From positions 1 to 6,607 of the IMG/VR virus record IMGVR_UViG_2531839662_000008: a stretch of 6,607 nt of DNA. One strand, 5' to 3'. Positions within the stretch are counted from its first letter, which is position 1. Each line of letters opens with the position of its first letter. The notes beneath the pieces were generated by a model that ran no database searches, was not told the origin of the DNA, and worked only from the letters and a program-made list of their open reading frames with translations. This DNA comes from a virus (taxonomy: Duplodnaviria > Heunggongvirae > Uroviricota > Caudoviricetes). Of this stretch, positions 1-6,607 are shown in pieces. The position numbers and the translations under genes were made by a program.

Positions 1-1
1 A

Positions 2-646
2 GGGCAAATAAATGAGTTGGTGACTCCGTTGCCGTATGTTTCCAGCGTAAGGAATCTAACAACATCTAATTCTGGTGCTGATACAGAGTCAGATGATAAT
101 TATGCTGAAAGAATAAAACTGTCGCCGGAAAAACTGTCTACAGCAGGGCCGGAGGATTCTTATAAATATTGGACAAGAACAGCCAATCAGAATATAAAAG
201 ATGTGAATGTATATACACCATCGCCCGGAACTGTAGAAATCCGTTCTTTGTTAGAGAACGGAGATATACCTTCTGATGAACTATTGGAGCAGATAAATAG
301 CGTTCTCTCTGCAACTAATATTCGACCATTCACAGATAAAGTTCTTGTTAAGAAACCAGAGAGCATTGAATACGATATAATAATTAAATACTGGATTAAC
401 TCATCGGACAAAAACAGAACAACATTAATTCAAAGTGAGGTTGAGAAAGCTATTGATGAGTATAAACAATGGCAACGTTCGGTTATGGGAAGAGATATAA
501 ATCCAGATGAAATTATTCAACGTTTAAAAAATGCCGGGGCTAAAAGATTAGAAATATCAAGTCCTGTATTTACTGTGGTTGGAGAGACGCAGGTCGCCAG
601 AGAGAGAAATGTAAATTGCCAGTATGCGGGGTTAGAGGATGGCTGA
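2..646 (+). CDS. Baseplate assembly protein J-like (P2 gpJ / Mu gp47 family), C-terminal part; 5' end lies outside the window
   Basis: Reading frame is open from the window start (no stop upstream of the listed start at 17). Translation contains the acidic 'ESDDNYAERI' motif typical of baseplate-J proteins. Stop overlaps the start of the next gene (639 ATG), and the next gene is gpI-like, giving the conserved J-I-fibre order. AT-rich codon usage. Confidence 0.7.
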   Translation, partial: GQINELVTPLPYVSSVRNLTTSNSGADTESDDNYAERIKLSPEKLSTAGPEDSYKYWTRTANQNIKDVNVYTPSPGTVEIRSLLENGDIPSDELLEQINSVLSATNIRPFTDKVLVKKPESIEYDIIIKYWINSSDKNRTTLIQSEVEKAIDEYKQWQRSVMGRDINPDEIIQRLKNAGAKRLEISSPVFTVVGETQVARERNVNCQYAGLEDG

Positions 647-1220
647 TATCTTTAATGTTAGCTTGTTGGATGTTTTACCTCCTAACTTAGCTAGAGATCC
701 CAACGTGATAGCTATGTCGAAAGCTATCGATGATGAACTACAAGCAATTAACAATTTAATATATAAGACAGAAATATATAGCGTTGTTGATAACCTGGAT
801 TCAGTTGTTCTCGATCATTTAGCTTGGCAATGGAATGCTGATACATGGAGGGATAGTTGGCCTGTATCGTTAAAGCGTTCTGTTTTTAAATCAATAATAC
901 GAACAAAGCGAATAAAGGGTACAAGGGCAGCGGTTGAAGATGTAGTAAATAGCTTGGGTGGAGAGGTAAACATAACAGAATGGTTTGAAACATCACCACC
1001 TGGCGAACCATATACAGCCTCAATTGTTGCTTCGATTAACTCTTTTGATGGTGCCGTTCCTTCGAAAGAGATGTTGGAAGATACGTTAAGAAGTATCAAG
1101 AGCGCAAAGTCGGCAAGAACATTATTTACATTTTCGCAAGCAGCCAATGTTTCTGGTGGTGTCGGTATTGTTGGTGCTTGTCAGCCTGTGTCTTATGTAC
1201 GATTAATTGGCGAGTGCTAA
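639..1220 (+). CDS. Phage tail protein I-like (P2 gpI family)
   Basis: 193-aa ORF whose start is translationally coupled to the J-like gene. The segment 'LDHLAWQWNADTWRDSWPVSLKRSV...GTRAAVEDVVNSLGGEVNITEWFETSPPGEPYT' matches my recollection of the gpI pattern (W..W, KR.V, G...A, NVTEW). Positioned between the J-like gene and the fibre gene. Confidence 0.7.
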   Translation: MADIFNVSLLDVLPPNLARDPNVIAMSKAIDDELQAINNLIYKTEIYSVVDNLDSVVLDHLAWQWNADTWRDSWPVSLKRSVFKSIIRTKRIKGTRAAVEDVVNSLGGEVNITEWFETSPPGEPYTASIVASINSFDGAVPSKEMLEDTLRSIKSAKSARTLFTFSQAANVSGGVGIVGACQPVSYVRLIGEC

Positions 1221-1250
1221 TTCGCAATTTGTTAATTCAAGGAATTAAGC

Positions 1251-2147
1251 GTGAGTAAATTATTATTTACGATGACTGACGCCGGGCGTCAGGAGCTGGT
1301 TAATGCCAACAAAACAGGAACAAATAAAGTTGAGATTGTTTCTGTTGGTTTAGGTAGTAGATATTATGTCACGTCAACTTCACAAACAAATATAACAAAC
1401 GAAATAAAACGACTTACCACAATAGGTGGCAAAGTTGTTTCCCCTGATACAATTCATGTAACAGCGAAGGATGATAGTAAAGATGAGTATGTTGTCCATA
1501 CAATAGGATTGTATACGAATAAGGGTACGTTGTTTGCTGTATACTCACAAGAACAAGCAATAATAAATAAAGCATCATCTACTATCGCTTTAATATCAAG
1601 TGATATAGCAATTAAAACTCTTGATACTAAAAATATTACATTTGGTGATATTGAGTTTATTAATCCTCCCGCGACCGAAACTGTTGTTGGGGTTGCAAGA
1701 TTTGCCAATGAACAAGAAATTGATGACGGTACAGATGATTCCCTTGCTGTTTCAGCAAAGCGGCTTAAGCAAGCCATTGTGAAACATGAACAATCACGTA
1801 ATCATCCTGATGCAACTTTAACCTCAAAAGGCTTTGTTCAACTTAGCAGCGCCACCAATAGCACGTCTGAAACGCTTGCTGCGACGCCTAAGGCTGTTAA
1901 GGCAGCATATGACCTGGCTAATGGCAAATACACCGCACAGGACGCTACCACAGCGCGAAAAGGGATTGTTCAGCTCAGTAGTGCCACCAACAGCACGTCT
2001 GAAACGCTAGCAGCAACACCAAAGGCTGTTAAGGCAGCGTATGATCTTGCGGCCGGAAAGGCTCCGTCCAATCACACGCATTCGTGGGAGCAGATAACAA
2101 ATGTGCCTGTAGCTTCACTGACTGTAAGGGGAATAACTGGGGTCTGA
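1251..2147 (+). pseudogene. Tail fibre protein, N-terminal part only; 3' end replaced by a Tn3-family inverted repeat at 2139 (the stop at 2145-2147 lies inside the repeat)
   Basis: GTG start at 1251 with AAGGA 6 nt upstream. N-terminal tail-collar/fibre attachment-type domain, then 'HEQSRNHPDATLTSKGFVQLSSATNSTSETLAATPKAVKAAYDLANGKYTAQDATTARKG' fibre repeats (two copies), then 'APSNHTHSWEQITNVP'. The last codons (LTVRGITGV*) are encoded by the junction and the Tn3 repeat GGGGTCTGA, so the native C-terminus is missing. Confidence 0.75.
1827..2050 (+). repeat. Tandem 132-bp (44-codon) phage tail-fibre repeats, about 1.7 copies
   Basis: 'aaaggctttgttcaacttagcagcgccaccaatagcacgtctgaaacg...' at 1827 recurs as 'aaagggattgttcagctcagtagtgccaccaacagcacgtctgaaacg...' at 1959. 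Encoded peptide repeat is KG[FI]VQLSSATNSTSETLAATPKAVKAAYDLA. Confidence 0.85.
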
Positions 2148-2176
2148 CGCTCAGTGGAACGAAAACTCACGTTAAG
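2139..2176 (+). repeat. Tn3-family (Tn1/Tn2/Tn3-type) 38-bp terminal inverted repeat, outer end at 2139
   Basis: Sequence GGGGTCTGACGCTCAGTGGAACGAAAACTCACGTTAAG matches the Tn3 terminal repeat as I recall it. It is not followed by the bla-proximal interior (GGATTTTGGTCATGAG), so this is probably the tnpA-proximal end. Confidence 0.8.
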
Positions 2177-2223
2177 CAACGTTTTCTGCCTCTGACGCCT
2201 CTTTTAATGGTCTCAGATGTCCT
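2139..2223 (-). mobile_element. Remnant of a Tn3-family transposon (terminal repeat plus about 47 bp of interior, probably the 3' end of tnpA), truncated by IS26
   Basis: Terminal repeat at 2139..2176 followed by 47 bp that run straight into the IS26 left repeat at 2224. A minus-strand reading frame terminates at 2167..2169 inside the repeat, as expected for the tnpA end of Tn3-family elements; that frame continues as antisense into IS26, so only the 2177..2223 part could be tnpA-derived. Confidence 0.65.
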
Positions 2224-3043
2224 GGCACTGTTGCAAATAGTCGGTGGTGATAAACTTATCATCCCCTTTTGCTGATGGAGCTGCACATGAACCCATTCAA
2301 AGGCCGGCATTTTCAGCGTGACATCATTCTGTGGGCCGTACGCTGGTACTGCAAATACGGCATCAGTTACCGTGAGCTGCAGGAGATGCTGGCTGAACGC
2401 GGAGTGAATGTCGATCACTCCACGATTTACCGCTGGGCTCAGCGTTATGCGCCTGAAATGGAAAAACGGCTGCGCTGGTACTGGCGTAACCCTTCCGATC
2501 TTTGCCCGTGGCACATGGATGAAACCTACGTGAAGGTCAATGGCCGCTGGGCGTATCTGTACCGGGCCGTCGACAGCCGGGGCCGCACTGTCGATTTTTA
2601 TCTCTCCTCCCGTCGTAACAGCAAAGCTGCATACCGGTTTCTGGGTAAAATCCTCAACAACGTGAAGAAGTGGCAGATCCCGCGATTCATCAACACGGAT
2701 AAAGCGCCCGCCTATGGTCGCGCGCTTGCTCTGCTCAAACGCGAAGGCCGGTGCCCGTCTGACGTTGAACACCGACAGATTAAGTACCGGAACAACGTGA
2801 TTGAATGCGATCATGGCAAACTGAAACGGATAATCGGCGCCACGCTGGGATTTAAATCCATGAAGACGGCTTACGCCACCATCAAAGGTATTGAGGTGAT
2901 GCGTGCACTACGCAAAGGCCAGGCCTCAGCATTTTATTATGGTGATCCCCTGGGCGAAATGCGCCTGGTAAGCAGAGTTTTTGAAATGTAAGGCCTTTGA
3001 ATAAGACAAAAGGCTGCCTCATCGCTAACTTTGCAACAGTGCC
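2224..3043 (+). mobile_element. IS26 (IS6 family), complete 820-bp copy
   Basis: 14-bp terminal inverted repeats GGCACTGTTGCAAA at 2224..2237 and TTTGCAACAGTGCC at 3030..3043. Internal ORF is the canonical Tnp26 sequence (MNPFKGRHFQRDIILWAVRWYCKYGISYRELQEMLAERGVNVDHSTIYRW...). The flanking 8-mers differ (GATGTCCT vs TTATTGCG), so there is no target-site duplication. Confidence 0.95.
2287..2991 (+). CDS. tnp26: IS26 transposase Tnp26 (234 aa)
   Basis: Translation from ATG 2287 begins MNPFKGRHFQRDIILWAVRW and ends ...GEMRLVSRVFEM, the IS26 transposase with its DDE motif. The listed ORF start at 2269 (MLMELH...) is an upstream in-frame extension; the canonical start is 2287. Confidence 0.93.
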   Translation: MNPFKGRHFQRDIILWAVRWYCKYGISYRELQEMLAERGVNVDHSTIYRWAQRYAPEMEKRLRWYWRNPSDLCPWHMDETYVKVNGRWAYLYRAVDSRGRTVDFYLSSRRNSKAAYRFLGKILNNVKKWQIPRFINTDKAPAYGRALALLKREGRCPSDVEHRQIKYRNNVIECDHGKLKRIIGATLGFKSMKTAYATIKGIEVMRALRKGQASAFYYGDPLGEMRLVSRVFEM

Positions 3044-5108
3044 TTATTGCGGAGCTGGTTATTCCTCCTGAAACGGGCGGATTCTGGATCCGGGAAATTG
3101 GTGTATTTGATGAGCACGGCGATTTAATCGCGGTGGGCAATACTGCCGAAAGTTACAAGCCAGCCGTTGCTGAAGGGTCCGGTCGTGCACAAACATTTCG
3201 CACCATTCTGACCGTATCCAGCACGGCCACCGTGGCGCTTACCGTGGATAACACCATGGTGATGGCCACAGTGGATTACGTGGATGACAAACTGAAAGAG
3301 CATGAACAGTCACGACGTCACCCGGACGCCTCGCTGACCGCAAAAGGCTTTGTTCAACTCAGTAGCGCCACTAACAGCGTGTCTGAAACGCAGGCTGCAA
3401 CGCCGAAAGCGGTTAAGGCCGCATATGACCTGGCTAACGGAAAATATACCGCTCAGGACGCCACGACGGCACGAAAAGGCCTTGTCCAGCTCAGTAGCGC
3501 CACCAACAGCACGTCTGAAACGCAGGCTGCAACGCCGAAAGCAGTAAAGGCCGCGTATGACCTTGCTAACGCAAAATATACCGCTCAGGACGCCACGACG
3601 GCACAAAAAGGGATAGTCCAGCTCAGTAGTGCCACCAACAGCACGTCTGAAACACTGGCCGCGACATCGAAAGCGGTTAAGGCGGTAATGGATGAAACGA
3701 ACAAGAAAGCGCCCTTAAACAGTCCTGCGTTGACCGGAACGCCAACAACGCCAACTGCGCGACAGGGAACGAATAATACCCAAATCGCAAGCACGGCTTT
3801 CGTTATGGCTGCGATTGCCGCCCTTGTAGATTCGTCACCTGACGCACTGAATACGCTGAACGAGTTAGCGGCGGCGCTGGGAAACGACCCGAATTTTGCG
3901 ACCACCATGACTAACGCGCTTGCGGGTAAGCAACCGAAAGATGCCACCCTGACGGTGCTGGCCGGGCTTGCTACTGCGGCAGACAAGTTTCCGTATTTTA
4001 CGGGGAATGATGTCGCCAGCCTGGCAACCCTGACAAAAGTCGGGCGGGATATTCTTGCGAAATCGACCGTTGCTGCCGTTATCGAATACCTCGGTTTACA
4101 GGAAACGGTAAACAGGGCTGGTAACGCCGTGCAAAAAAATGGCGATACCTTGTCCGGTGGGCTTACTTTTGAAAACGACTCAATCCTTGCCTGGATTCGA
4201 AATACTGACTGGGCAAAGATTGGTTTTAAAAATGATGCCGATAGCGATACTGATTCATACATGTGGTTTGAAACAGGCGACAACGGCAATGAATATTTCA
4301 AATGGAGAAGCAAACAAAGCACCACAACAAAAGACCTGATGAATCTTAAATGGGATGCTTTGTCTGTTCTTGTTAAAGCCCTTTTCAGCAGTGAAGTAAA
4401 AATATCGACAGTCAATGCACTGAGGATATTTAATTCATCTTTTGGTGCCATTTTTCGCCGTTCTGAAGAATGCCTGCATATCATCCCTACACGAGAGAAT
4501 GAGGGGGAAAATGGCGATATAGGGCCGCTACGCCCCTTTACGCTTAATCTCAGAACTGGTCGCATAAATATGGGGCATGGTCTGGATGTTACAGGAGATA
4601 TAACAACTAACGCATGGGTGTACGCAAACCGCTTGCAATTAACAGCAGCACAGGCATGTGGATTCATATGCGTGACCAGAATGTTATTTTTGGACGTAAT
4701 GCGGTATCCACTGATGGTGCTCAGGCTTTGCTCCGTCAGGACCATGCCGACCGCAAATTTATGATTGGCGGTCTGGGAAATAAGCAATTTGGCATCTACA
4801 TGATTAATAACTCAAGGACAGCCAATGGCACCGATGGTCAGGCGTACATGGACAATAACGGTAACTGGCTTTGCGGTGCGCAAATTATTCCCGGAAATTA
4901 TGGCAATTTTGACTCACGCTATGTGAGAGATGTCCGACTTGGCACACGTGTTGTTCAATTGATGGCGCGTGGAGGGCGTTATGAAATAGCCGGACACGCA
5001 CTTACCGGATTAAGGATTATTGGTGAAGTTGATGGCGATGATGAAGCTATCTTCAGGCCGATACAAAAATACATCAATGGCATATGGTATAACGTCGCAC
5101 AGGTGTAA
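3044..5108 (+). pseudogene. Tail fibre protein (P2 gpH / P1-Mu S type), 5'-truncated by IS26 and apparently frameshifted (-1) near 4630
   Basis: Coding sequence starts mid-gene directly at the IS26 right end ('..IAELVIPPETGGFWIREIGVFDEHGDLIAVGNTAESYKPAVAEGSGR..' is an internal stretch of gpH-type N-terminal domains). Then three fibre repeats, then 'TAFVMAAIAALVDSSPDALNTLNELAAALGNDPNFATTMTNALAGKQPKDATLTVLAGLATAADKFPYFTGN'. Frame 1 is protein-like up to about 4632 (..NAWVYANR), after which only frame 3 is protein-like (LAINSSTGMWIHMRDQNVIFGRNAV...IPGNYGNFDSRYVRDVRLGTRVVQ...RPIQKYINGIWYNVAQV*), implying a 1-nt deletion. The listed ORF's TTG start at 3031 lies inside IS26 and is not a real start. 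Confidence 0.75.
3343..3690 (+). repeat. Tandem 132-bp tail-fibre repeats, about 2.6 copies, homologous to those at 1827..2050
   Basis: Units begin at 3343, 3475 and 3607 ('aaaggctttgttcaactcagtagcgcc', 'aaaggccttgtccagctcagtagcgcc', 'aaagggatagtccagctcagtagtgcc'). A 35-nt stretch 3619..3653 is identical to 1971..2005. Confidence 0.85.
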
Positions 5109-5111
5109 ATT

Positions 5112-5638
5112 ATGCAGCATTTAAAAAATATTAAGTCTGGAAATCCAAAAACAAAAGAACAATATCAGCTAACAAAGAATTTTGATGTTATCTGGTTATG
5201 GTCCGAAGACGGAAAAAACTGGTATGAGGAAGTGAAAAACTTTCAGCCAGACACAATAAAGATGTTTACGATGCAAATAATATTATTGTCGCCATCACCA
5301 AAGATGCCTCCACGCTTAACCCTGAAGGTTATAGCGTCGTTGAGGTTCCTGATATTACAGCTAATCGTCGTGCTGATGATTCCGGTAAGTGGATGTTTAA
5401 GGACGGAGCTGTGGTTAAACGGATTTATACGGCAGACGAGCAACAACAACAGGCCGAATCACAAAAGGCCGCGTTACTTTCCGAAGCAGAAAACGTTATT
5501 CAGCCACTGGAACGCGCTGTCAGGCTGAATATGGCGACGGATGAGGAACGCGCACGACTGGAGTCATGGGAACGCTATAGTGTTCTGGTCAGCCGTGTGG
5601 ATACGGCAAATCCTGAATGGCCACAAAAGCCTGAATAA
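5112..5638 (+). pseudogene. Tail-fibre assembly chaperone (lambda Tfa / P2 gpG / Mu U family) with an apparent 1-nt deletion at about 5264
   Basis: N-terminus [51 protein letters not shown] closely parallels the intact minus-strand paralogue ([54 protein letters not shown]...). After codon 51 the frame becomes junk; shifting by -1 at 5264 gives [65 protein letters not shown]...PEWPQKPE*, which runs to the stop at 5638. ATG at 5112 lies 3 nt after the fibre stop. Confidence 0.75.
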
Positions 5639-5643
5639 AAATT

Positions 5644-5663
5644 AAGGCCCGATAGCGGGCCTT
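5644..5663. terminator. Bidirectional intrinsic-terminator-like hairpin between the convergent chaperone genes
   Basis: Perfect 8-bp stem AAGGCCCG / CGGGCCTT with a 4-nt loop ATAG. It sits in the 28-bp gap between the stop at 5638 (plus) and the stop at 5667..5669 (minus), with an A-rich tract on one side (TAAAAATT) and a T-rich tract on the other (TTGTTTCATT). Confidence 0.6.
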
Positions 5664-5666
5664 GTT

Positions 5667-6200
5667 TCATTCTGGTTGTTCTGGAAACGTTACTGGCAGG
5701 CTGGAGGTGTCTGTGGATTCGACCTTCTGCGCATAGAGCATCCACTCGGTTAATTTTTGTTTATTCTCGTCGGGAATGATACCCAGCCGTAGCTGTGAGT
5801 CCCATAGCTGGGTTTTATCCCTGACAAGTTGCAACAGGCTTTGCTTTTCATTCTCTGCCTGCTGCCTCTGTTCCTCCTCGGTATAAGTTCGCTTTATCAC
5901 TACGCCATCTTTGAACATCCATTTACCCGAAATATCAGCCCGGCGATTTGCTGTAATATCAGGTAATTCAACGACGCTTGCGCCTTCCGGATTAATTGCT
6001 GAAACATCCTTTTCAATACAAATAATAACGCCGTTATGGTCATAGACCATTTTCAAAGTGTCTGGCTGGAAATTCTTTTGTTCCTCATACCAGTTTTTTC
6101 CATCATCTGAATAAAGCCATTTGATGTTAAATTGCTTTGTTAGCTGGTATTGCTCTTTTGTTTTAGGGTTGCCAGCAGTAATGTTTTTTAAGTGCATCAT
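5667..6200 (-). CDS. Tail-fibre assembly chaperone, alternative copy (Tfa' / U'-like), intact
   Basis: 177-aa ORF. N-terminal 50 aa are highly similar to the plus-strand chaperone, and the C-terminal half is divergent. Start ATG lies 2 nt after the stop of the upstream minus-strand fibre-tip ORF (translational coupling). Confidence 0.8.
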   Translation of the reverse strand: MMHLKNITAGNPKTKEQYQLTKQFNIKWLYSDDGKNWYEEQKNFQPDTLKMVYDHNGVIICIEKDVSAINPEGASVVELPDITANRRADISGKWMFKDGVVIKRTYTEEEQRQQAENEKQSLLQLVRDKTQLWDSQLRLGIIPDENKQKLTEWMLYAQKVESTDTSSLPVTFPEQPE

Positions 6201-6202
6201 CG

Positions 6203-6607
6203 TTAAATACTCCCCGCGTTATACCACGTCCCATTAATGCAATACTGAATTGGCCTTGCCTGAGTTGTATCAATTAATTCATCACGGTTTCCGTTAACTG
6301 AACCCGTAACGACATAACCTGACCTGTCAGACCAGCCGGGGCCATTCCATGTCTGAACAGATGACAGACCGCCAAGGCGAATACCTGTAATAAACCTTGA
6401 GTTACATTCTGCCTGCGTGTATGCACCAACATCTCCCGCAGAGGGTTTGCGGGTCGTGGTGTAAAACTCTGACCAGTTAGCCTCAAATCCATAACCATCA
6501 CGCGCTGAACGATAAAAAATACCGCCGTTCCTGTAATTCACGCGGAACTGTACAGCAGGGCAGCTCCCCGTATTCATATTGAAGTGGAGGATTAATGTCG
6601 ATGCGCC
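6203..6607 (-). CDS. Alternative tail-fibre C-terminal (receptor-binding tip) segment, partial; continues past the right edge of the window
   Basis: Minus-strand frame is open to the window edge (…GASTLILHFNMNTGSC…), so the listed Met at 6577 is internal. The C-terminal end '...RPIQYCINGTWYNAGSI*' parallels the plus-strand fibre end 'RPIQKYINGIWYNVAQV*'; the rest is divergent. Immediately followed by its own chaperone. Confidence 0.7.
   Translation of the reverse strand, partial: GASTLILHFNMNTGSCPAVQFRVNYRNGGIFYRSARDGYGFEANWSEFYTTTRKPSAGDVGAYTQAECNSRFITGIRLGGLSSVQTWNGPGWSDRSGYVVTGSVNGNRDELIDTTQARPIQYCINGTWYNAGSI

What the first reader, a model, noticed from the sequence alone, without database searches (positions are those of the whole stretch)
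2139..2223. Footprint of a Tn3-family transposon inside a phage tail-fibre gene
A Tn3-type 38-bp terminal repeat plus 47 bp of interior is all that remains between the fibre gene and IS26. IS26-truncated Tn2/Tn3 ends are a hallmark of multiresistance regions, so this locus was probably once occupied by, or is still adjacent to, an antibiotic-resistance region (blaTEM-type transposon or derivative). The fibre reading frame terminates fortuitously at a TGA inside the repeat.
Basis: partly seen in the sequence, partly recalled or inferred. Interest (0 to 1): 0.5.

Follow-up and report, generated by a model that had tools for sequence, protein, structure and literature searches.

The report
IS26-cut Tn3-family transposon end remnant
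An 85-base stump of the common ampicillin-resistance transposon (Tn1/Tn2/Tn3 type), cut off by the insertion sequence IS26, sits in the tail-fibre gene of a ~48-kb E. coli phage-plasmid; it is a routine scar of resistance-element traffic, not a new kind of element.

Summary
Window 2139-2176 is the 38-bp Tn3-type inverted repeat. Bases 2177-2223 are the last 16 codons of tnpA on the minus strand. All 85 bp equal bp 1-85 of a complete 4,950-bp tnpA-tnpR-blaTEM-1 transposon and at least 5,000 plasmid records. IS26 (2224-3043, 820 bp) abuts it with no 8-bp duplication. The fibre ORF stops at a TGA inside the repeat.

The window is a whole draft contig of E. coli 2.3916 (AFAB02000093.1). The fibre::IR junction is also present, base-identical, in a second assembly (NOEZ01000041.1), so it is real.

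The transposon entered after codon 296 of a 785-codon fibre gene of a ~48-kb phage-plasmid (99% identical to Yersinia phage vB_YpM_39).

One correction. The DNA right of IS26 is not the rest of that gene. It is a different, P88-type (P2-like) fibre gene, starting at its nt 230. IS26 therefore either fused two phage genomes, or the draft assembly mis-joined two IS26 copies.

No resistance gene lies in the window, so "once occupied" is well supported and "still adjacent" is untested. This is a known kind of structure and of low interest.

The parts
1..646 (+). 3' part of the baseplate J gene of the ~48-kb phage-plasmid (the contig starts inside the gene)
   Evidence: Pfam Baseplate_J_M/_C on the called product; collinear with the annotated baseplate gene of pO145_122715_2 and vB_YpM_39.
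639..1220 (+). Tail protein I gene (193 aa), phage-plasmid backbone
   Evidence: PF09684 Tail_P2_I; the exact protein is present in thousands of ~48-50-kb contigs with the same gene order, followed by an IncFII_repA-type gene.
1251..2138 (+). First 888 nt (296 codons) of the phage-plasmid tail-fibre gene; the ORF runs on to TGA at 2145-2147 inside the repeat (298 aa)
   Evidence: 99.0% ungapped identity of window 1-2138 to vB_YpM_39, ending exactly at 2138. The intact gene is 785 codons and continues ...VRGIT|QLSSAT. ORF listed.
2134..2138 (.). TAACT: the 5 bp expected to have been duplicated by the Tn3-family insertion (only this copy survives)
   Evidence: Inference from the 5-bp duplication rule of Tn3-family elements. 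The uninterrupted allele reads GGAATAACT|CAGCTC.
2139..2176 (+). 38-bp terminal inverted repeat of a Tn1/Tn2/Tn3-type transposon (IRL, tnpA end), read inward
   Evidence: 38/38 identity to the reference element; single occurrence; 0 expected by chance.
2172..2223 (-). Last 16 codons plus stop of tnpA (GHLRPLKEASEAENVA*), all that is left of the transposon interior
   Evidence: Identical to bp 34-85 of the 4,950-bp element, where the annotated tnpA CDS ends at the same base.
2224..3043 (+). IS26, complete (820 bp, 14-bp terminal repeats, tnp26 at 2287-2991), with one SNP (T>C at 2438, Tnp26 V>A). Flanks GATGTCCT / TTATTGCG, so no 8-bp target duplication
   Evidence: 820/820 aligned with 1 mismatch to IS26 of p22C037LT2; Pfam DDE_Tnp_IS240/rve; flanks read.
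3044..5108 (+). 3' part of a different tail-fibre gene (phage P88 / P2-like type), starting at nt 230 (codon 77) of that gene. A one-base deletion at 4631 (CC>C) splits the frame
   Evidence: 99.4% identity of 3041-6607 to phage P88. Junction and residue offset; indel.
4079..4104 (+). Left crossover site of the DNA-invertase switch (TTATCGAATACCTCGGTTTACAGGAA) at the constant/variable boundary of the P88-type fibre gene
   Evidence: Same site in P88, with an inverted copy (2 mismatches) just before its invertase gene. Matches to the P1/P7/D108 invertible segments begin here.
5112..5638 (+). Tail-fibre assembly gene (P88 type) with a one-base deletion at 5262 (TT>T)
   Evidence: With the base restored, the 175-aa product is an exact, widespread protein seen on 603 contigs.
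5667..6200 (-). Alternative tail-fibre assembly gene of the invertible segment
   Evidence: PF02413 Caudo_TAP; collinear with P88.
6203..6607 (-). 3' part of the alternative fibre tip gene of the invertible segment (the contig ends inside it)
   Evidence: Collinear with P88 CDS 25952-26695.

Best explanation
Bases 2139-2223 are a dead remnant of a Tn1/Tn2/Tn3-type (blaTEM-carrying) replicative transposon. Step 1 is shown by sequence. The transposon inserted into the tail-fibre gene of a ~48-kb phage-plasmid between nt 888 and 889 (codon 296 of 785), with its tnpA end (IRL) facing the 5' part of the gene. This cut off the receptor-binding two thirds of the fibre and created a 298-aa ORF that stops in the repeat. 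Step 2 has a shown outcome and an inferred route. IS26 came to lie at transposon position 85/86 and everything beyond it (tnpA, res, tnpR, blaTEM, IRR, the second TAACT) is gone from this place. The absence of an 8-bp duplication around IS26 means it did not simply insert there. One of its flanks was exchanged by an IS26 replicative event (adjacent deletion or cointegrate formation) or by recombination between two IS26 copies. Step 3 is unresolved. IS26's other flank is a P88-type prophage fibre gene. The contig therefore shows either an IS26-mediated fusion of the phage-plasmid with that prophage or a mis-join of two IS26 copies. What is left can do little. It has one IR and no transposase, so it cannot move by itself. 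From established Tn3 biology (not tested here), a single 38-bp IR still binds TnpA and can confer target immunity on its replicon. The fibre gene is inactivated, so the phage-plasmid probably persists only as a plasmid.
For: 85/85 identity to the tnpA end of a complete 4,950-bp tnpA-tnpR-blaTEM-1 element and to at least 5,000 plasmids. No match expected by chance. Window 1-2138 aligns ungapped at 99.0% to vB_YpM_39 and stops exactly at the IR, while the intact gene continues for 489 more codons. An uninterrupted copy of virtually the same allele exists in other assemblies. The fibre::IR junction is base-identical in a second assembly, whose contig ends 77 nt into the IR. IS26 is complete with non-matching flanks. 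The right flank is 99.4% identical to phage P88 from nt 230 of its fibre gene, with GC 0.48-0.50 against 0.40 on the left. IS26 moves through cointegrates and reshuffles flanks (PMC7986276). IS26-truncated Tn2 and lost tail-fibre modules are described in P1-like plasmids (PMC6906374). A relative of the same phage-plasmid family (CP087535.1) carries IS26-blaTEM-sul3-IS26 in the same fibre gene at another site.
Against: The other transposon end, its 5-bp duplication and blaTEM are not in the window, so a complete transposon at this site is inferred, not seen. No record in PLSDB, 5,426 complete E. coli genomes, GTDB representative genomes, IMG/VR or JGI metagenomes shows either junction, so no ancestral or sister state with the full transposon was found. 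The contig comes from a draft assembly with two frameshifting one-base deletions unique to it, so the linkage across the 820-bp IS26 is not secure.
Confidence: 0.9

Rival explanations
1. The right-hand linkage is real. The contig records an IS26-mediated cointegrate (or IS26 x IS26 recombinant) in which the phage-plasmid is fused to a P88-type prophage at their respective fibre genes. A second, directly oriented IS26 would lie at the other boundary, possibly with the rest of the transposon and blaTEM next to it.
For: The arrangement donor flank (transposon stump) - IS26 - target (P88 fibre) without an 8-bp duplication is exactly one boundary of an IS26 cointegrate, which is the obligatory product of IS26 transposition (PMC7986276). 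The assembler carried one contig right through IS26. The IS26 copy carries a rare but genuine SNP variant, seen also in an unrelated metagenome contig.
Against: It is seen in a single draft contig. The second assembly breaks before IS26. The predicted reciprocal junction protein and the frame-corrected fusion ORF are absent from the 15-billion-protein collection. The junction DNA is absent from all collections scanned.
Confidence: 0.5
2. The right-hand linkage is an assembly chimera. The genome holds two IS26 copies, one beside the transposon stump in the phage-plasmid and one inserted in the fibre gene of a chromosomal P88-type prophage, and the assembler joined the wrong flanks across the 820-bp repeat.
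For: The assembly is a draft, and this contig has two private one-base deletions in otherwise P88-identical sequence, which suggests low-quality consensus. An independent assembly of an identical phage-plasmid stops 77 nt into the IR, showing that this region is repeat-bounded in that genome. The two configurations differ only in how four flanks are paired.
Against: Assemblers usually break at multi-copy IS26 rather than bridge it. No contig with the alternative pairing could be retrieved. Even under this reading, IS26 sits in the P88-type fibre gene, which itself requires a past cointegrate.
Confidence: 0.4
3. The 85 bp are not a truncated autonomous transposon. They are either cloning-vector contamination (pBR322/pUC carry a Tn3 IR) or the end of a Tn3-derived miniature element (TIME).
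For: Vectors do contain this 38-bp repeat (own knowledge). TIMEs interrupted by IS26 are described (PMC13367494).
Against: The interior is the tnpA end. It shares only 8/47 bases with the bla-end interior, which (own knowledge) is the IR end carried by those vectors. The junction with phage DNA is reproduced in a second assembly. The 47 bp are identical to the tnpA 3' end of the full element. Only one IR is present. That TIME paper describes no Tn2-derived miniature element.
Confidence: 0.03

Closest known systems
Tn2 (and its near-identical relatives Tn1 and Tn3), the 4.95-kb blaTEM transposons of the Tn3 family
   Same: Window 2139-2223 is identical to bp 1-85 (IRL plus the tnpA 3' end) of a complete 4,950-bp tnpA-tnpR-blaTEM-1 element.
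   Different: Only 85 of about 4,950 bp remain. There is no tnpA, res, tnpR, bla or second IR, so it is non-functional. The variant (Tn1, Tn2 or Tn3) cannot be told from these bases.
IS26-truncated Tn2 ends in multiresistance regions, including P1-like phage-plasmids such as pTZ20_1P (PMC6906374)
   Same: IS26 cuts into the IRL/tnpA side of the transposon, IS26-mediated loss of neighbouring DNA follows, and tail-fibre modules of a phage-plasmid are affected. Many plasmids have IS26 within a few hundred bp of this end.
   Different: Here the cut is at bp 85, a boundary that appears in none of the rows listed from PLSDB or the complete E. coli genomes (only 15 rows per search were inspected). 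The host element is a ~48-kb P2-tailed phage-plasmid, not P1. No resistance gene remains in view.
Phage P7, a natural P1-like phage-plasmid carrying Tn2 with blaTEM-1b (stated in PMC6906374)
   Same: A blaTEM transposon of this type inserted in a phage-plasmid genome.
   Different: In P7 the transposon is complete, and it is described as lying near the c8-mat region rather than in a tail-fibre gene. Here it hit the fibre gene and was later destroyed.
Plasmid CP087535.1 (82 kb), same phage-plasmid family
   Same: Same backbone (98% identity to window 1-2050) and the same fibre gene interrupted by an IS26-bounded region with blaTEM (with a Tn IRR) and sul3.
   Different: It is an independent event. 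IS26 abuts the fibre gene directly at a different position (equivalent to about window 2003), with no IRL stump.
IS26 cointegrates between replicons (e.g. pBK32533; Varani et al. 2021, PMC7986276)
   Same: One IS26 with unrelated 8-bp flanks joins DNA of two different mobile elements.
   Different: Only one boundary is seen here, in a draft contig. The second IS26 and the reciprocal flanks were not found.

Membership tests
Tn3-family transposon, Tn1/Tn2/Tn3 (blaTEM) subgroup | 38-bp terminal inverted repeat of the GGGGTCTGACGCTCAGTGGAACGAAAACTCACGTTAAG type | tested here: met
   38/38 at 2139-2176; single match; 0 expected by chance.
Tn3-family transposon, Tn1/Tn2/Tn3 (blaTEM) subgroup | Interior next to the IR continues as the transposon's own sequence (tnpA 3' end at IRL) | tested here: met
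   47/47 identity to bp 39-85 of the complete element; encodes the last 16 residues of TnpA on the minus strand.
Tn3-family transposon, Tn1/Tn2/Tn3 (blaTEM) subgroup | Second IR in inverted orientation, and tnpA, res/tnpR and passenger bla between the IRs | tested here: not met
   No second IR even with 3 mismatches allowed. No such ORFs in the window. It is therefore a remnant, not a transposon.
Tn3-family transposon, Tn1/Tn2/Tn3 (blaTEM) subgroup | 5-bp target-site duplication flanking the element | not testable with these tools
   Only the left copy (TAACT, 2134-2138) can exist here, because the other end is deleted or elsewhere in the genome.
Tn3-family transposon, Tn1/Tn2/Tn3 (blaTEM) subgroup | Assignment to Tn1, Tn2 or Tn3 by diagnostic differences | tested here: inconclusive
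   Reference records for Tn1 (RP4) and Tn3 (R1) were not in the collections. The 85 bp are invariant in the 5,000 best plasmid hits. The matching complete element is 4,950 bp long.
IS26 (IS6 family) | 820-bp element with 14-bp terminal inverted repeats and a 234-aa DDE transposase | tested here: met
   2224-3043; 819/820 identity to IS26 of p22C037LT2; Tnp26 intact with one V>A change; Pfam DDE_Tnp_IS240/rve.
IS26 (IS6 family) | 8-bp direct duplication of the target around a simple insertion | tested here: not met
   Flanks are GATGTCCT and TTATTGCG. This is expected after IS26-mediated deletion, cointegration or IS26 x IS26 recombination, so it concerns history rather than identity.
~48-kb phage-plasmid family (pO145_122715_2 / Yersinia phage vB_YpM_39 type) | Collinear baseplate J - tail protein I - fibre genes at high nucleotide identity; plasmid replication gene in the element | tested here: met
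   Window 1-2138 is 99.0% identical to vB_YpM_39 and 98% identical to pO145_122715_2 over 1-2050. A second assembly places the identical sequence on a 45.4-kb contig of that element. Relatives carry an IncFII_repA-type gene after the invertase. The rep gene itself lies outside the window.
Phage P88-type (Xuanwuvirus, P2-like) tail-fibre module | Fibre - assembly gene - inverted assembly gene - alternative tip, with an invertase crossover site | tested here: met
   Window 3041-6607 is 99.4% identical and collinear to P88. Crossover site at 4079-4104. The first 229 nt of the fibre gene are missing.

The most novel reading that the evidence does not exclude
The contig is correct as assembled. IS26 has physically fused a ~48-kb phage-plasmid to a chromosomal P2-like (P88-type) prophage, breakpoint to breakpoint within their two tail-fibre genes. 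The phage-plasmid, and whatever remains of its blaTEM region, would then be integrated in the chromosome inside a prophage, and both phages would have lost a functional fibre.
Probability: 0.45. Interest if true: 0.3.

Novelty: already known. Interest (0 to 1): 0.12.

Why it matters
The stump is a reliable historical marker: a blaTEM-type transposon once landed in this phage-plasmid, and IS26 then reworked the site. That adds one more case to the documented traffic of resistance elements through phage-plasmids (PMC9600943, PMC6906374). It also shows, together with CP087535.1, that the tail-fibre gene of this ~48-kb family has been hit more than once. In practice the unique fibre/IR junction is a lineage marker for strain 2.3916 and its relative. 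The truncated fibre predicts a phage-plasmid that can no longer make infectious particles. None of this changes current understanding of Tn3-family elements or IS26.

Tried and rejected
1. I looked for the same junctions elsewhere. The fibre/IR, IS26/P88-fibre, predicted reciprocal P88/IS26 and predicted IRR/TAACT/fibre junctions gave no hits in GTDB representative genomes, IMG/VR or JGI metagenomes. No record with at least 80% coverage turned up in PLSDB or 5,426 complete E. coli genomes.

2. The exact transposon(bp 85)/IS26 boundary: all listed full-coverage hits are two-piece matches with IS26 further inside tnpA. Only 15 rows per search were inspected, so rarity is probable but not proven.

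3. Tn1/Tn2/Tn3 typing failed because accessions BN000925, KY749247 and L27758 are not in the collections.

4. A 296-aa partial fibre protein (P0004, about 20 contigs) ends at exactly the insertion codon and at first looked like further carriers. Two of the contigs continue ...TAACTCA, the uninterrupted gene. The others stop at 2137, just before a base (T2138) shared by the uninterrupted gene's internal repeat and by the transposon junction. They are therefore not evidence for the junction.

5. Exact look-ups of the frame-corrected IS26-fibre fusion ORF and of the predicted reciprocal junction peptide found nothing in the collection.

6. E. coli AVS0947 (CP124460) and E. fergusonii p22C037LT2 have IS26 next to fibre genes, but at other sites and without the stump, so they are unrelated events.

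7. Assigning the backbone to the pSLy3 phage-plasmid group was rejected, because that group belongs to the SSU5 supergroup, a set of P-Ps defined by relatedness to SSU5.

8. The large homology search was not used. Short junction peptides are absorbed into 90% clusters of full-length fibres (see cluster 1), so it was unlikely to reveal them.

Full report
OBSERVATION. Bases 2139-2176 read GGGGTCTGACGCTCAGTGGAACGAAAACTCACGTTAAG. Bases 2177-2223 are 47 further bases. IS26 begins at 2224 with GGCACTGTTGCAAA and ends at 3043 with the inverted copy, 820 bp in all. The 38-mer occurs once in the window even with three mismatches allowed, and none of 200 shuffles gave a match. The 85 bp are 100% identical over their full length in at least 5,000 plasmid records, the cap of the search. 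The fibre ORF (1251-2147, 298 aa) ends at a TGA at 2145-2147, inside the repeat.

WHICH END, WHICH ELEMENT. In plasmid pM160133_p2 the same 85 bp are bp 1-85 of a complete 4,950-bp element. That element is bounded by two inverted copies of the 38-mer and carries tnpA (3,006 nt, minus strand), a resolvase gene and blaTEM-1. The annotated tnpA ends 34 bases into the repeat. On the minus strand, the window's interior reads GHLRPLKEASEAENVA-stop, with the stop codon at 2172-2174. This is therefore the tnpA end (IRL). The bla end shares only 8 of 47 interior bases. From my own knowledge, the bla end is the Tn3 IR end carried by pBR322/pUC vectors, so vector contamination is excluded. I could not retrieve Tn1 or Tn3 reference records, so the variant is unresolved. 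The matching element has the length usually quoted for Tn2 (own knowledge, not a test).

SOURCE AND REALITY OF THE JUNCTION. An exact look-up of the 298-aa truncated fibre protein found two contigs. One is the window itself: the whole 6,607-bp contig AFAB02000093.1 of assembly GCA_000194535.2. Its protein record is named as from Escherichia coli 2.3916. The other is a 45.4-kb contig, NOEZ01000041.1 of GCA_002516985.1. Its last 2,215 bases are identical to window 1-2215, and it ends exactly 77 bases into the repeat. The fibre/IR junction is therefore reproduced in an independent assembly. The end position is what a k=77 graph assembler gives when the repeat starts at 2139. I infer from this that the second genome holds at least one more copy of this transposon end with a different left flank.

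WHAT WAS HIT. Window 1-2138 aligns without gaps at 99.0% to Yersinia phage vB_YpM_39 (49 kb) and at 98% (1-2050) to E. coli plasmid pO145_122715_2 (48.6 kb). The alignment to the phage stops exactly at 2138. Relatives found through the tail-protein-I look-up are ~48-50-kb contigs with the order tube, tape measure, baseplate, J, I, fibre, two assembly genes, invertase and then an IncFII_repA-type gene. This is a phage-plasmid family, at least one member of which has been isolated as a phage. In the intact gene the fibre is 785 codons. The transposon entered after nt 888 (codon 296), at GGAATAACT|CAGCTC, so the expected 5-bp duplication is TAACT. Uninterrupted copies of essentially the same allele exist in other assemblies.

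WHAT LIES BEYOND IS26. Window 3041-6607 is 99.4% identical to phage P88 (Xuanwuvirus, P2-like). It is collinear with P88's fibre gene, assembly gene, inverted assembly gene and alternative tip gene. The match starts 229 nt into the P88 fibre gene. The window therefore holds the N-terminal region of one fibre gene on the left and, from codon 77, the overlapping homologous region of another on the right. The G+C content is 0.40 on the left and 0.48-0.50 on the right. IS26 has unrelated 8-bp flanks, GATGTCCT and TTATTGCG. IS26 did not simply insert into one gene; it joins DNA from two different phage genomes.

MECHANISM. Steps 1 and 2 of the best explanation follow from the sequence plus the established behaviour of the elements. 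Tn3-family elements need both IRs and TnpA to insert. IS26 transposes only through cointegrates and produces adjacent deletions and flank exchanges (PMC7986276).

For the right-hand linkage, two readings remain. Either the contig shows one boundary of a real IS26 cointegrate or recombinant between the phage-plasmid and a P88-type prophage, or the assembler mis-paired the flanks of two IS26 copies. The two states differ only in how four flanks are paired, and they interconvert by recombination across IS26. Even the chimera reading requires a past cointegrate to put IS26 into the prophage.

Several points argue for caution. This contig has two one-base deletions (4631, CC>C; 5262, TT>T) in 2.3 kb that is otherwise identical to P88. 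The resulting ORFs are unique to this contig. Restoring the base at 5262 gives an exact, widespread assembly protein. Against a collapsed repeat, the IS26 copy carries a rare SNP (T>C at 2438, Tnp26 V>A). That SNP also exists in an unrelated metagenome contig, so it is a genuine variant. I put the real fusion at about 0.5 and the chimera at about 0.4.

RESISTANCE REGION. No resistance gene is in the window. 'Once occupied by a blaTEM-type transposon' is a strong inference. 'Still adjacent' is untested, because the tools do not give access to the other contigs of these assemblies. Supporting context comes from a relative of the same phage-plasmid family. CP087535.1 (82 kb) has IS26 directly in the same fibre gene at another position. 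It is followed by blaTEM (with the transposon's IRR), sul3 and another IS26. The literature already describes IS26-truncated Tn2 and lost tail-fibre modules in P1-like plasmids (PMC6906374). It also describes the general association of IS26 with resistance genes in phage-plasmids (PMC9600943).

COMPARISON AND VERDICT. The remnant is identical to a known element end, cut by a known IS in a known manner. It fails the membership test for a functional transposon, since it has no second IR, tnpA, res or bla. It is best filed as a Tn1/Tn2/Tn3 IRL remnant. The exact cut at bp 85 and the insertion site are private to this lineage as far as the searches reach. They are new instances, not a new kind. 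Novelty: already known. Interest: low (0.12). The only reading with some novelty is the phage-plasmid/prophage fusion, which long reads would settle.

Noticed in passing
window 3044-6607: The DNA right of IS26 is not the continuation of the interrupted fibre gene. It is a P88-type (P2-like) fibre module at 99.4% identity, starting at nt 230 of that gene. The contig therefore joins two different phage genomes across IS26.
   Followed up: yes
window 4631 and 5262: There are two one-base deletions relative to P88 (CC>C in the fibre gene, TT>T in the assembly gene) in otherwise identical sequence. The frameshifted ORFs are unique to this contig, and the repaired assembly protein is an exact widespread protein. 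They are probably consensus errors, possibly very recent pseudogenisation.
   Followed up: partly
window 2438 (IS26): IS26 differs from the canonical copy by one T>C change (Tnp26 V>A). The exact variant protein is on record in only one other contig, an ENA metagenome contig (L008) with completely different flanks whose right flank resembles an aminoglycoside phosphotransferase region.
   Followed up: partly
window 4079-4104: TTATCGAATACCTCGGTTTACAGGAA is the left crossover site of the Gin/Cin/Pin-type invertase switch. In P88 an inverted copy lies before the invertase gene. The window ends inside the invertible segment, which may be why the contig stops there.
   Followed up: partly
L005 (NOEZ01000041.1), last 77 bases = window 2139-2215: The second assembly's 45.4-kb phage-plasmid contig stops exactly 77 nt into the IR. 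This implies that the transposon end is a multi-copy repeat in that genome, so another Tn2-type copy is likely elsewhere.
   Followed up: no
L012 (CP087535.1) 11498-17181: A relative of the same phage-plasmid family carries an IS26-bounded region with blaTEM, a Tn IRR and sul3 inserted in the same fibre gene at a different site. A 2026 preprint on phage-plasmid-mediated heteroresistance cites this accession but could not be opened.
   Followed up: partly
L021-L028 (GCA_0118... and related assemblies), contig ends = window 2137: About a dozen assemblies have contigs identical to window 1-2137 that stop one base before the junction. This fits either the internal fibre repeat or the transposon junction, so it is ambiguous whether they carry the insertion.
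   Followed up: partly
window 3031-4764: The annotated 577-aa ORF starts at a TTG inside the right terminal repeat of IS26 and reads into the truncated P88-type fibre gene. It is probably an annotation artefact, although IS26 ends are known to supply a -35 box for hybrid promoters (PMC7986276).
   Followed up: no
window 1780-2050 and 3330-3690: Both fibre genes contain tandem copies of a ~44-residue unit (KGFVQLSSATNSTSETLAATPKAVKAAYDLA...) shared between unrelated phage fibres. These repeats cause many cross-matches and appear to be where draft assemblies of this gene commonly break.
   Followed up: no
plasmid hits H30 (CP099184.1) and H40 (NZ_CP117657.1): Other members of the ~48-kb family have IS3-family transposases annotated within the J / I / fibre stretch. 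This suggests the module tolerates insertions while the element persists as a plasmid.
   Followed up: no
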